The notes under the pieces: model-generated
Databases searched by the model: none
The model's input: only the letters and a program-made list of their open reading frames with translations
Told to the model about the DNA's origin: nothing
Translations under genes and position numbers: made by a program
Virus record (IMG/VR): IMGVR_UViG_3300017912_002752
Direction: 5' to 3' (one strand)
DNA from: a virus
Taxonomy: Duplodnaviria; Caudoviricetes
DNA length: 64,000 bases
Shown: positions 24,615-24,762 of the stretch, in pieces
How the letters are laid out: each line of letters begins with the position of its first letter
Numbering within the stretch: the stretch's first letter is position 1

Positions 24615-24762
24615 AGGAATAGGTAGGAATCGAACCTACTATGGCACATCTCGTGTTTCGAACCACTTGATAACTCCACCACAGAGTATTGATGAGAGAC
24701 CCATGTCTCTTATAGGGAAGTTACTCCCAACGGTTTCATCGAACCTTCACCATTACTATTCC
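24615..24762 (-). ncRNA. 148-nt tRNA-like RNA with a multi-hairpin insert
   Basis: Acceptor GGAATAG/CTATTCC, canonical T-arm GTAGG-TTCGATT-CCTAC, ATGGTG/TGCCAT stem enclosing about five hairpins. Confidence 0.65.

What the first reader, a model, noticed from the sequence alone, without database searches (positions are those of the whole stretch)
24615..24762. 148-nt tRNA-mimic with three T-loop motifs inside the tRNA operon
Seen: between tRNA-Arg and tRNA(CAT) lies an RNA with a perfect 7-bp acceptor stem (GGAATAG/CTATTCC), U8-A9 and a canonical T-arm (GTAGG-TTCGATT-CCTAC). The D and anticodon arms are replaced by a stem (ATGGTG/TGCCAT) closing about 100 nt. That insert holds about five hairpins: GGTT/AACC, GGGAG/CTTCC, AGAGAC/GTCTCT, ACTC/GAGT and GTG/CAC. 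Two further GGTTCGA T-loop-like motifs occur inside it. It has no G3:U70 and is too short for tmRNA. Known: the acceptor/T-arm half suffices for RNase P, RNase Z and CCA processing, and paired T-loops are how T-box leaders and RNase P grip tRNA elbows. Inference: an undescribed phage ncRNA that is matured like a tRNA and may bind tRNAs, ribosomes or a defence protein.
Basis: partly seen in the sequence, partly recalled or inferred. Interest (0 to 1): 0.82.

Follow-up and report, generated by a model that had tools for sequence, protein, structure and literature searches.

The report
Anticodon-less tRNA-shaped RNA of marine phages
The 148-base stretch is a real, conserved small-RNA gene of uncultured marine phages that keeps the top half of a tRNA but cannot read codons; it belongs to no catalogued family, its closest known counterpart is the still-unexplained phage T4 "species 1" RNA, and its job is unknown.

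Summary
On the minus strand at 24615-24762, between tRNA-Arg(UCU) and tRNA(CAU), lies a 148-nt sequence with a perfect 7-bp acceptor stem, U8-A9 and a canonical T-arm, but no anticodon loop. Rfam (E up to 10), ARAGORN (including intron and tmRNA modes) and a scan of 4110 single deletions find no tRNA, tmRNA or spliceable tRNA.

It is a conserved gene. I found it in 20 further marine metagenome contigs (11 distinct sequences, 6 groups). The acceptor stem is invariant. The T-stem and four internal hairpins keep pairing through compensatory changes: 93-95% of cells paired against 40-47% for slid controls, with 11-14 pairs changed on both sides. An internal hairpin loop, GUUCGAAA, never changes although its stem takes three pair types.

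The gene is an accessory cassette. It is missing from the closest relative and from a 94%-complete relative, and both forms coexist in one seawater sample. Elsewhere it sits in a promoter-to-terminator operon with other unknown RNAs.

Expression, processing and function are not shown. This scan has noted similar anticodon-less tRNA-shaped phage RNAs on other DNA, so this is one more family of that emerging class.

The parts
24615..24762 (-). The tRNA-shaped RNA gene (148 nt; RNA position p = 24763 minus the window coordinate)
   Evidence: Sequence and fold. Covariance model R1 scores it 177 bits and finds 20 homologues.
24756..24762 (-). Acceptor stem 5' strand, GGAAUAG (RNA 1-7), followed by U8 A9
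   Evidence: Pairs perfectly with 24616-24622. All 7 pairs are invariant in 11 of 11 distinct sequences.
24615..24622 (-). Acceptor stem 3' strand, CUAUUCC (RNA 141-147), plus discriminator U148. No CCA is encoded.
   Evidence: The discriminator is U or A among homologues.
24623..24639 (-). Canonical T-arm, GUAGG-UUCGAUU-CCUAC (RNA 124-140)
   Evidence: The third stem pair flips between A-U and U-A in both main clades. The loop is UUCRANN in all sequences.
24729..24753 (-). 5' region (RNA 10-34): strand 10-15, invariant AAGG (16-19), a variable segment, then ACCG. It folds either as a D-like arm (11-14/29-32) or as hairpin 18-21/28-31 plus one half of the closing stem.
   Evidence: Local stem pairs 4 of 4 in 10 of 11 sequences, with U14-A29 changing to C-G. 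The hairpin is good in 4 of 6 groups. Segment length is 12-30 nt.
24640..24646 (-). Linker UGCCAUA (RNA 117-123), in the place of a tRNA variable loop.
   Evidence: 10:122 is A-U, C-G or U-A. 14:118 is U-G, U-A or C-G. 11:121 is mismatched in 10 of 11 sequences.
24715..24728 (-). Hairpin H2, GGGAG-UAAC-UUCCC (RNA 35-48). It sits where an anticodon arm would be but has a 4-5 nt loop.
   Evidence: Compensatory variants GGGU/ACCC and GAGGG/UCCUC. No 7-nt anticodon loop occurs in any homologue.
24695..24710 (-). Hairpin H3, AGAGAC-AUGG-GUCUCU (RNA 53-68)
   Evidence: Five of its 6 pairs change on both sides, and 100% of cells are paired.
24673..24687 (-). Hairpin H4, ACUC-UGUGGUG-GAGU (RNA 76-90). 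It is D-arm-like: a 4-bp stem with a 7-nt G-rich loop.
   Evidence: U78-A88 becomes C-G in the L191 group. The loop is nearly invariant.
24647..24672 (-). Hairpin H5 (RNA 91-116): base UAUC/GAUG and tip GUG-GUUCGAAA-CAC. The tip carries the conserved second T-loop-like motif.
   Evidence: Tip pair 98:109 is U-A, A-U or C-G, while the 8-nt loop is invariant in all 11 sequences. GAUG can alternatively pair with CAUC (69-72), where U-A changes to C-G.
24766..24777 (-). Conserved 5' leader, GUUCUUUGAAAA
   Evidence: Present in front of the element in every homologue, whatever lies upstream. GTTCTTTGA is retained in the element-less relative.
24609..24614 (-). Conserved 3' trailer, ACCUUA
   Evidence: ACC(U/C) follows the discriminator in all homologues.
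24612..24768 (-). The 157-nt stretch that is present or absent between close relatives (the cassette)
   Evidence: G001 has the 5-nt filler TGTAC in place of window 24608-24768, which includes this stretch; its flanks are 96-100% identical. The main contig of X3 joins 24611 to 24769. X5 joins 24604 to 24769.
24880..24908 (-). Phage promoter-like motif (TTGG-N19-CGTATCTT) just upstream of tRNA-Arg
   Evidence: 4 copies in the window against 0.16 expected. The same motif precedes the element in the other contigs.
24357..24857 (-). The surrounding operon: tRNA-Arg(tct) 24783-24857, the element, tRNA(cat) 24530-24604, tRNA-Leu(taa) 24357-24443
   Evidence: ARAGORN and Rfam.

Best explanation
It is a gene for a non-decoding, tRNA-derived stable RNA of about 148 nt.

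Shown:
- The RNA family is conserved in uncultured marine phages.
- It keeps an invariant 7-bp acceptor stem and a canonical T-arm.
- A short tetraloop hairpin (H2) stands where the anticodon arm would be.
- Three further conserved hairpins follow. One of them carries an invariant T-loop-like loop, GUUCGAAA.
- The gene behaves as an accessory cassette that moves between tRNA and ncRNA operons.

Inferred:
- It is co-transcribed with neighbouring tRNAs from a phage promoter.
- It is cut out like a tRNA. RNase P would act at G1, and a 3' endonuclease (RNase Z) or exonuclease at the discriminator. CCA would then be added by the host enzyme or by a phage enzyme of the type encoded in the large relative G003.
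- The tRNA shell then gives it stability.

Proposed mode of action (weakest step, about 1 chance in 4): the tRNA shell displays the invariant insert. The D-arm-like hairpin H4 and the T-loop-like hairpin H5 may together form a second tRNA-elbow-like surface. The RNA would then act in trans as a non-translating tRNA look-alike that occupies or titrates a factor recognising tRNA shape, whether a host tRNA-binding enzyme, a ribosomal site or a tRNA-directed defence protein.
For: - tRNA shell and position inside a tRNA operon.
- No known family matches: Rfam at gathering threshold and at E up to 10, and the same for the homologous loci.
- 20 homologous loci fall into 6 sequence groups. They were found by a core-pattern scan and, independently of that pattern, through a neighbouring 83-aa protein family plus model R1.
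- Covariation: 94.7% or 92.8% of cells are paired, against 40-47% when the partners are slid. 11 or 14 pairs change on both sides, and 0 of 500 shuffles reach the observed score.
- The acceptor stem and the loops and linkers are invariant while the stems vary. The invariant parts are AAGG, UAUA, CAYCAAY, UAUCAA and GUUCGAAA. This points to sequence-specific recognition.
- Presence/absence polymorphism: G001, coexisting forms in runs X3 and X5, and absence from the 94%-complete relative G003.
- The same promoter motif lies upstream here and in the other contigs.
- Relative G003 encodes a CCA-adding-enzyme domain (PF01743, 113 bits) in a 1307-aa open frame.
- Precedent: T4 RNAC (139 nt) has an acceptor-like stem plus a T-arm, lies in the T4 tRNA cluster after tRNA-Arg and RNAD, and is a stable RNA confirmed by Northern blot whose function is still unknown (PMC3014915, PMC9697503).
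Against: - No expression or end-mapping data. The one RNA library laid on the region did not cover the element, and it was contigs only.
- The single-sequence fold is not unusually stable (z = -1.67).
- The 5' region has two competing folds that the data do not resolve.
- The homologues form only about six lineages, and most double changes separate two or three clades, so the number of independent events is small.
- No conserved protein partner was found near the element. Among the 39 larger window ORFs (30 against Pfam, 9 against PHROGs) none matched an RNA-binding or tRNA enzyme family.
- The gene is dispensable in close relatives, so any function is accessory.
- The second-elbow and decoy idea rests on motif resemblance alone.
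Confidence: 0.72

Rival explanations
1. An aminoacylatable, non-decoding tRNA derived from a class II (long-variable-arm) tRNA. H2 would be a decapitated anticodon arm and H3-H5 a hugely expanded variable region. A synthetase that ignores the anticodon would charge the RNA, which would then donate the amino acid outside translation or sequester the synthetase. SerRS is one candidate. From my own knowledge, its E. coli identity set includes G1-C72, G2-C71, A3-U70 and C11-G24.
For: The invariant acceptor stem G1-C72, G2-C71, A3-U70, A4-U69 suggests sequence-specific reading. H2 sits exactly where an anticodon stem would be, after a D-like stem. G18 and G19 lie at their canonical distance from the 5' end. 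Model R1's only non-family hit with E below 0.5 was a class II tRNA, T4 tRNA-Leu (14 bits, E = 0.13).
Against: The discriminator varies (U or A), which is unusual for a conserved synthetase identity. No tRNA model detects the element. The D-like stem fails in the L191 group. The tRNA-Leu hit is not significant. No charging data exist.
Confidence: 0.1
2. A tmRNA tRNA-like-domain mimic. The shell plus the closing stem (10-15/117-122) would imitate the tmRNA acceptor/T-arm domain and its P2 helix, and the RNA would bind SmpB to block or redirect ribosome rescue. This resembles the TLD-only tmRNA of mycobacteriophage DS6A. In the other contigs it might instead act as one half of a split rescue RNA together with the downstream RNA.
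For: Pair 10:122 covaries through three Watson-Crick types. PMC4131195 reports that DS6A carries little more than a TLD and that such molecules inhibit tmRNA whether or not they can be charged.
Against: There is no G3:U70; the A3-U70 pair is invariant. ARAGORN in tmRNA mode at a lowered threshold and all Rfam tmRNA families give nothing at E up to 10. The resemblance of the window's 5' region to the tmRNA UUCGA segment is not conserved in homologues. Pair 11:121 is mismatched in 10 of 11 sequences. The window lacks the downstream RNA. I found no convincing tag reading frame there by eye.
Confidence: 0.07
3. A processing punctuation element. The tRNA-like shell would exist only to recruit RNase P and RNase Z so that neighbouring RNAs in the operon are released, and the insert would have no function in trans.
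For: It always lies inside polycistronic RNA operons, between tRNAs or in front of other structured RNAs. Its 5' leader and 3' trailer are conserved.
Against: Its neighbours in the window are ordinary tRNAs that carry their own processing signals, and the operon exists without it in G001. About 50 nt of the insert are nearly invariant and four insert helices covary, which punctuation would not require.
Confidence: 0.05
4. A decaying or chimeric pseudo-tRNA left by recombination among tRNA genes, for example at their GGTTCGA motifs, with no function.
For: Phage tRNA clusters gain and lose genes quickly. The element is absent from the nearest relatives. It has three GGTTCGA motifs. The single-sequence fold z-score is only -1.67.
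Against: It is conserved in 21 loci, in different genomic contexts and several studies. Every core helix shows compensatory changes, the acceptor stem is perfect and invariant, and the loops are invariant. No single deletion restores a credible cloverleaf.
Confidence: 0.03
5. An intron-containing tRNA that splices to a normal cloverleaf.
For: The length (148 nt) and the intact acceptor and T arms.
Against: ARAGORN with introns allowed finds nothing on this strand. Of 4110 single-deletion variants, only 6 gave calls, all poor 'tRNA-Leu(caa)' folds with G-U-rich stems. There is no group I intron match in Rfam. No homologue has a 7-nt anticodon loop.
Confidence: 0.02

Closest known systems
Phage T4 RNAC (species 1 RNA, rnaC, 139 nt), with RNAD, the small stable RNAs of the T4 tRNA gene cluster
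   Same: It is encoded in a phage tRNA operon. The T4 order is tRNA-Arg(UCU), rnaD, rnaC; here the element follows tRNA-Arg(UCU) directly. The size is similar. The ends form an acceptor-like stem next to a canonical T-arm (CCGGG-UUCGAAU-CCCGG), and these enclose about 100 nt of other hairpins. There is no anticodon arm. Neither RNA matched any Rfam family above its gathering score. The function is unknown (PMC3014915, PMC9697503).
   Different: There is no detectable sequence or model similarity: R1 does not hit rnaC, and blastn finds nothing. The T4 RNAC acceptor stem has two U-U mismatches, whereas this one is perfect and invariant. The insert folds differently. The host and phage lineages differ.
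TLD-only tmRNA of mycobacteriophage DS6A, and the tmRNA tRNA-like domain in general
   Same: An acceptor stem plus a T-arm with no anticodon arm. A helix formed by the sequence just 3' of the acceptor strand and the sequence just 5' of the T-arm is possible here (10-15/117-122). Both are phage-encoded. PMC4131195 reports that such molecules can inhibit trans-translation.
   Different: No G3:U70, no tmRNA-type D-loop, no match to any tmRNA model, and a different conserved insert.
Class II tRNAs (Leu, Ser, Tyr), Rfam RF00005
   Same: A 7-bp acceptor stem, a 5-bp T-stem with a UUCRANN loop, U8, GG at positions 18-19, a 4-bp D-like stem in most homologues, a 5-bp stem at the anticodon-arm position, and extra helices between that stem and the T-arm.
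   Different: A 4-5 nt loop in place of the 7-nt anticodon loop. About 70 nt with three helices replace one variable arm. The tRNA models do not detect it.
Bacterial and phage Y RNAs (YrlA, RF02553)
   Same: A non-coding RNA containing a tRNA-like module. Some are phage-encoded (PMC4201824, listed).
   Different: In YrlA the tRNA-like part is internal and the RNA ends form the Ro60-binding stem. Here the ends form the acceptor stem. The Rfam score is 18.6 bits against a gathering score of 69, and the match covers only the T-arm plus the start of the next tRNA. No Ro60/TROVE match was seen among the window ORFs I scanned.
Other anticodon-less tRNA-shaped RNAs noted by this scan in other phage genomes (AI notes, unchecked)
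   Same: The same general plan and the same location in phage tRNA clusters. Those notes also name T4 RNAC as the nearest known RNA.
   Different: A look-up by sequence found no look-alike of this element in other windows, so this is a separate sequence family.

Membership tests
tRNA (RF00005) | Detected by tRNA covariance model or ARAGORN | tested here: not met
   No hit on the element at Rfam gathering threshold or at E up to 10. ARAGORN in default, lowered-threshold, intron and mitochondrial modes finds nothing on this strand.
tRNA (RF00005) | 7-nt anticodon loop on a 5-bp stem | tested here: not met
   The stem at that position (H2) closes a 4-nt loop (UAAC or UGAC) or a 5-nt loop (UAAUC) in all 11 distinct sequences.
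tRNA (RF00005) | 7-bp acceptor stem and 5-bp T-stem with a UUCRANN loop | tested here: met
   100% of cells are paired and the T-stem covaries.
tRNA (RF00005) | D-arm with G18 G19 | tested here: inconclusive
   AAGG at positions 16-19 is invariant, and a 4-bp stem (11-14/29-32) pairs in 10 of 11 sequences. It fails in the L191 group and competes with another fold.
Intron-containing tRNA | Removing one internal segment leaves a canonical cloverleaf | tested here: not met
   4110 deletion variants gave 6 poor calls. ARAGORN intron mode was negative.
tmRNA (RF00023 and related families), including TLD-only forms | G3:U70 alanine identity pair | tested here: not met
   A3-U70 in all sequences.
tmRNA (RF00023 and related families), including TLD-only forms | Match to a tmRNA model, or a tag reading frame with pseudoknots | tested here: not met
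   No Rfam tmRNA hit at E up to 10. ARAGORN -m at 80% threshold finds none. The length is 146-162 nt.
tmRNA (RF00023 and related families), including TLD-only forms | Binding to SmpB | not testable with these tools
   Needs a binding assay.
T4 RNAC-type stable RNA of phage tRNA clusters (a kind, not a curated family) | Encoded within a phage tRNA operon, with an acceptor-like stem plus a T-arm around a non-tRNA core of about 100 nt | tested here: met
T4 RNAC-type stable RNA of phage tRNA clusters (a kind, not a curated family) | Sequence or model homology to T4 rnaC | tested here: not met
   R1 has no hit on rnaC in L035. blastn of the element against phage records matches only T-arm-sized pieces.
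T4 RNAC-type stable RNA of phage tRNA clusters (a kind, not a curated family) | Accumulates as a discrete stable RNA processed by RNase P | not tested
   No usable RNA data. The RNA run X15 has no contig over the element.
YrlA / Y RNA (RF02553) | Model match, a Ro60-binding terminal stem and a neighbouring Ro60 (TROVE) gene | tested here: not met
   18.6 bits against a gathering score of 69, off-register. No TROVE match among the 30 window ORFs scanned against Pfam.

The most novel reading that the evidence does not exclude
The RNA is a phage counter-measure that works purely by shape. It would be a double-elbow tRNA decoy, with the canonical T-arm elbow plus a second one built from the D-arm-like H4 and the invariant GUUCGAAA hairpin. 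Once matured by the tRNA machinery, it would jam a host factor that measures or grips tRNA elbows, such as a tRNA-directed defence nuclease, the RNase P/Z-CCA quality-control path or a ribosomal tRNA site. It would act together with the phage's own CCA-adding/ligase enzyme and the rewritten tRNA-Gly-like RNA, as parts of one tRNA-centred arms-race toolkit. That would give a first function to the T4 RNAC type of RNA.
Probability: 0.13. Interest if true: 0.85.

Novelty: new variant of a known kind. Interest (0 to 1): 0.6.

Why it matters
Stable tRNA-like RNAs in phage tRNA clusters have been known since T4 species 1 and 2 RNAs were described, and reviews still list their role as unknown (PMC3014915, PMC9697503). 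This element shows that the same build has arisen or persisted in an unrelated lineage of abundant marine phages. Here its conserved core is sharply defined: an invariant acceptor stem, an invariant GUUCGAAA loop on a covarying stem, and invariant linkers.

It also behaves as a gain/loss cassette that travels with other unclassified RNAs. That gives concrete handles for experiments, namely which nucleotides to mutate and which partner RNAs to co-express. It also supplies a covariance model for finding more members.

If these RNAs prove to be tRNA-shaped decoys or non-ribosomal aminoacyl carriers, they would form a new layer of phage-host conflict around the translation apparatus. If not, the result still adds a well-supported new RNA family to a class that is missing from Rfam.

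Tried and rejected
- **Known families.** Rfam at gathering threshold and at E up to 10 gave no family for the element. The only overlapping row was YrlA, at 18.6 bits against a gathering score of 69, off-register.
- **tRNA and tmRNA finders.** ARAGORN default, -i, -ps70/80, -m and -mt found nothing on the element's strand.
- **Intron hypothesis.** All 4110 single deletions of 40-99 nt were fed to ARAGORN. Only 6 poor tRNA-Leu(caa) calls resulted, so it was rejected.
- **Phage isolate records.** blastn of the element matched only T-arm-sized pieces. megablast of 12 kb around it found no match. blastn of the homologous operon found nothing relevant.
- **IMG/VR scans that returned nothing.** These were the 3' end, the core, CCCTATAAG...ACTCTGTG and the acceptor + T-arm frame.
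- **Species-representative genomes.** The core pattern gave no match.
- **Triple GGTTCRA spacing pattern.** It returned 80 loci of 119 or more, and none was similar in sequence to the element. I did not examine them further.
- **Relatives found through the neighbouring 291-aa protein.** Of 32 loci, only the nearest relatives keep the tRNA cluster, and none has the element.
- **Viral contig G002.** It holds the downstream RNA, but the record ends just where the element would lie, so it is uninformative.
- **RNA run X15.** No contig covers the element. This says nothing about expression.
- **CCA-adding enzyme in G001 and G002.** PF01743 was not found, but both records are fragments.
- **Single-sequence thermodynamics.** These do not single the element out (z = -1.67). 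They also could not decide between the two folds of the 5' region.
- **T-loop register of the internal motif.** I considered G100-C108 as the closing pair and rejected it, because covariation fixes the stem register as 97-99/108-110.
- **Pairing of 69-73 with the H4 loop.** I considered it and found it unsupported: the substitutions in the L156-type and L191 groups break it.
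Full report
**1. What is at the coordinates**

All five tRNA genes of the window lie on the minus strand. Three of them form a cluster: tRNA-Arg(tct) 24783-24857, tRNA(cat) 24530-24604 and tRNA-Leu(taa) 24357-24443. The finding fills the gap between Arg and cat.

Read on the minus strand, 24762 to 24615 gives GGAAUAG-UA-(114 nt)-GUAGG-UUCGAUU-CCUAC-CUAUUCC-U. 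This confirms the perfect 7-bp acceptor stem, U8-A9, the canonical T-arm, A3-U70 instead of G3:U70, the complementarity AUGGUG/UGCCAU, the listed hairpins and the three GGTTCGA motifs. GGTTCGA occurs 10 times in the window against 2.7 expected, three of them inside this element.

The minimum-free-energy fold of the single sequence is not exceptional (-43.2 kcal/mol, z = -1.67). The case therefore rests on comparison, not on thermodynamics.

**2. What it is not**

- Rfam 15 has no match, either at gathering scores or at E up to 10 over 24300-25000. The only overlapping row is YrlA at 18.6 bits (gathering score 69), which spans the T-arm and the start of the next tRNA.
- ARAGORN finds no tRNA or tmRNA on this strand, even with introns allowed, lowered thresholds or tmRNA mode.
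- To test "an intron-containing tRNA that splices to a cloverleaf", I removed every internal segment of 40-99 nt (4110 variants) and ran ARAGORN. Only six variants gave a call, all the same weak tRNA-Leu(caa) with a G-U-rich anticodon stem and a degenerate D-arm.

**3. A presence/absence polymorphism**

The nearest held virus record is G001, which shares 56% of the window's sampled 31-mers. It matches the tRNA cluster at 96-100% identity but lacks the element. In place of window 24608-24768 (161 nt), G001 has only TGTAC between ...GTTCTTTGA and TTGGTTCTC....

Laying public seawater runs on the region gave the following:
- A second sample of the source study (X2) assembles the element independently with 0-1 differences. 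It also holds diverged variants of the element.
- A run from another study (X3) has a main contig (depth 15) that joins 24611 to 24769, together with low-depth contigs (depth 2-3) that match the element exactly.
- A third study (X5) has a junction from 24604 to 24769 and a diverged copy of the element inside an otherwise different 652-nt contig.

The element is therefore real DNA, and both forms coexist in nature. A 94%-complete relative of 181 kb (G003) and four further relatives have no match to the covariance model.

**4. Homologues**

Scans of IMG/VR for the 3' end, the core, the middle and the acceptor/T-arm frame found nothing. Species-representative genomes gave nothing either.

One scan of JGI metagenome contigs with a 20-nt core (RNA 94-113) returned six contigs, L155-L160. 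All six align over the whole element.

I then used a small protein gene that lies 400-550 nt downstream in those contigs. That protein family has at least 484 members in marine data. I fetched contigs for eight of its clusters and searched them with model R1, which was built from the first seven sequences. This added L201-L202, L238-L247 and a more divergent group, L191-L195 plus L200, at 130 bits.

In all, 21 loci hold the element. They give 11 distinct sequences in six groups. The last two groups differ inside the 20-nt search core, so they are free of the ascertainment imposed by that pattern.

**5. Structure supported by comparison**

The data are the hand-segmented table and the tool counts.

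| Feature | RNA positions | What varies among the 11 sequences |
|---|---|---|
| Acceptor stem | 1-7 / 141-147 | Nothing; all 7 pairs invariant |
| T-stem | 124-128 / 136-140 | Third pair is A-U or U-A, in both main clades; loop always UUCRANN |
| H2 | 35-48 | GGGAG/UUCCC, GGGU/ACCC or GAGGG/UCCUC; loop of only 4-5 nt |
| H3 | 53-68 | Five of six pairs change on both sides |
| H4 | 76-90 | ACUC/GAGU or ACCC/GGGU; loop UGU(G/U)(G/A)UG |
| H5 tip | 97-99 / 108-110 | Middle pair is U-A, A-U or C-G; the 8-nt loop GUUCGAAA never changes |
| Base of H5 | 113-116 (GAUG) with 91-94 or 69-72 | With UAUC, U-A becomes U-G; with CAUC, U-A becomes C-G |

Over the whole structure, 94.7% (fold A) or 92.8% (fold B) of cells form standard pairs, against 40-47% when the 3' partners are slid by 1-3 columns. 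Eleven or 14 pairs show changes on both sides, and none of 500 column shuffles reaches the observed covariation score. Both tool counts understate the pairing in rows where the model alignment is off by one column. One search corrects this by hand.

Between the helices, the linkers UA (8-9), AAGG (16-19), UAUA (49-52), CAYCAAY (69-75), UAUCAA (91-96), GA (111-112) and A123 are invariant or nearly so.

**6. What remains unresolved in the fold**

The 5' region can fold in two ways.

- Fold A is tRNA-like. A 4-bp D-like stem (11-14/29-32) pairs in 10 of 11 sequences, with U14-A29 becoming C-G, but it fails in the L191 group (2 of 4 pairs). G18 and G19 sit in the following loop, and UGCCAUA (117-123) is left as a variable-loop-like linker.
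The closing stem 10-15/117-122 has 10:122 as A-U, C-G or U-A, and 14:118 as U-G, U-A or C-G. However, 11:121 is mismatched in 10 of 11 sequences and 15:117 in 4 of 11. Its hairpin 18-21/28-31 is good in four groups and reduced to two G-C pairs in the L156 and L238 types.

Constrained folding favours fold A by 1-7 kcal/mol in most sequences and is neutral for L191. The two folds may be alternatives. Or 10:122 may be a tertiary pair of the kind that links the D-stem and variable loop in tRNAs; that last point is my inference from general tRNA knowledge.

Only its GG is, inside AAGG, and the sequence after it varies in length from 12 to 30 nt.

**7. Context**

In the window, a motif TTGG-N17-21-CGTATNTT occurs four times against 0.16 expected. 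One copy (24880-24908) lies about 20 nt upstream of tRNA-Arg. The same motif precedes the element in the other contigs. It resembles the Bacteroidota -33/-7 promoter type; that comparison comes from my own knowledge and the host is not established.

In the other contigs the element is not in a tRNA cluster. It follows the promoter, sometimes after a conserved leader hairpin. It is followed by various combinations of three things:
- a 72-nt tRNA-Gly-shaped RNA with rewritten D and T loops;
- further hairpins;
- a roughly 200-nt structured RNA that ends in an intrinsic terminator.

L170 has that operon without the element, and in L160 the element stands alone before a terminator. The conserved flanks GUUCUUUGAAAA (5') and ACC(U/C)UA (3') travel with the element. 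GTTCTTTGA survives in the element-less G001. This fits loss by deletion, or exchange by recombination at these flanks.

No tRNA-related enzyme was found among the larger ORFs of the window, 30 scanned against Pfam and 9 against PHROGs. They include thymidylate synthase, an HNH endonuclease, NUDIX, GroEL, a DnaJ-like protein, ClpP and many glycosyltransferases. Relative G003, however, encodes a CCA-adding-enzyme domain in a 1307-aa frame. This agrees with an unchecked first-reader note that this genome has such a fusion outside my window.

**8. How it most likely works**

Shown:
- It is a conserved, structured, accessory RNA gene.
- It has a tRNA top half and no anticodon loop.

Inferred from established tRNA biology:
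- The acceptor/T-arm minihelix, with its leader and trailer, is the substrate form that RNase P, RNase Z and CCA-adding enzymes recognise.
- The RNA is therefore probably cut out of the polycistronic transcript and stabilised like its tRNA neighbours.

Proposed:
- The acceptor stem and the insert loops are invariant while the stems drift, so the molecule is probably read by sequence and by shape.
- H4 resembles a D-arm, with a 4-bp stem and a 7-nt loop that has GG in most groups.
- H5 carries a T-loop-like sequence.
- The insert may therefore present a second tRNA-elbow-like surface.
- I therefore favour a trans-acting, non-translating tRNA look-alike that occupies a tRNA-recognising factor, at roughly 1 chance in 4 for that specific mode.

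Four rivals are set out above: a chargeable class II-derived tRNA, a tmRNA-TLD-like SmpB sponge, mere processing punctuation and a dead relic.

**9. Comparison with what is known**

The closest known object is T4 RNAC. It has the same kind of location: in T4, tRNA-Arg(UCU) is followed by rnaD and then rnaC. It is of similar size. It has an acceptor-like stem plus a canonical T-arm around a hairpin-rich core, and it matches no Rfam family above its gathering score. Its function is still unknown (PMC3014915). It is confirmed as a late-expressed stable RNA by Northern blot (PMC9697503).

There is no detectable homology between the two. The relation is one of kind, not of family.

A large computational survey of phage structured RNAs mentions tRNA-like candidates only generically (PMC10690425). 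Notes from this scan describe several other anticodon-less tRNA-shaped RNA families in other phages. None resembles this one in sequence.

**10. Verdict**

This is a new sequence family within a known but unexplained kind of phage RNA. Expression and function remain untested.

Noticed in passing
window 13587-13658 (- strand): A 72-nt tRNA-Gly-shaped RNA missed by ARAGORN and Rfam. All four cloverleaf stems pair (7/4/5/5 bp). The anticodon loop is CAACCAG (A at position 33, anticodon ACC), the D-loop has no GG, and the T-loop is GGCAGAG. It follows a promoter motif (13683-13711) and precedes tRNA-Glu. Homologues with covarying stems lie directly 3' of the 148-nt element in L156, L158, L159, L191 and L238. 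It is 100% identical in G001, which lacks the element.
   Followed up: partly
L155-L159, L191, L238 (3' of the element), L170, G002:44819-44962: A conserved structured RNA of about 200 nt ending in an intrinsic terminator. Its motifs are GGYGAUGAAA(U)GAUAC, GAGGUUAAGGGGUUUUCCUC and CUCUCCUAUCC...GUUCGUCCGAACCACCC. It is co-transcribed with the element and can occur without it (L170). It has no Rfam hit. Earlier notes of this scan call look-alikes a modular structured RNA of marine phages. It was not found in this window.
   Followed up: partly
window 13683-13711, 24880-24908, 35717-35745, 40657-40685 (all - strand): A repeated promoter-like motif, TTGG-N17-21-CGTATNTT: 4 copies against 0.16 expected. 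Two copies sit directly upstream of the two tRNA/ncRNA operons. The same motif recurs many times in related contigs such as G002. It resembles the Bacteroidota -33/-7 type, which hints at the host.
   Followed up: partly
L155-L160, L170, L238, about 30-80 nt upstream of the element: A conserved leader hairpin. Its stem covaries (GGUUAGU/ACUAACU, GAUUAAU/AUUAAUC, AAUUGU/ACAAUU) and its interior is conserved (GAUUGAGA-N5-6-CUCUAA). It lies at the 5' end of the ncRNA operon transcripts. It is absent in front of the element in this window.
   Followed up: no
window 13518-13586 (- strand): A long hairpin, AGAGAGAGG...CCUCUCUCU, lies between the tRNA-Gly-shaped RNA and tRNA-Glu. The mechanical ORF 12796-13632 (TTG start) runs over tRNA-Glu and part of that RNA, so its 5' part is probably not coding.
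   Followed up: no
window 24858-25984: About 1.1 kb without an ORF of 60 aa or more lies upstream of the tRNA operon. It includes a GC-rich patch near 25080-25140 that stands out from the AT-rich surroundings. Another first-reader note lists DnaA-box-like and palindromic motifs at 25360-25983.
   Followed up: no
G003:C1:172031-172387 (locus L250): A 94%-complete 181-kb relative encodes a CCA-adding-enzyme (PF01743) domain inside a 1307-aa open frame. This fits an earlier unchecked note that this phage lineage has a nucleotidyltransferase + CCA-adding + ligase-like fusion protein.
   Followed up: partly
window 35066-35704 and loci L171-L175, L211-L215: The LPD29-domain protein of the window has counterparts directly upstream of the 81-87-aa protein family that flanks the ncRNA operon in other contigs. 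The contigs that hold the element therefore come from the same broad lineage of large marine phages, with this region rearranged.
   Followed up: no
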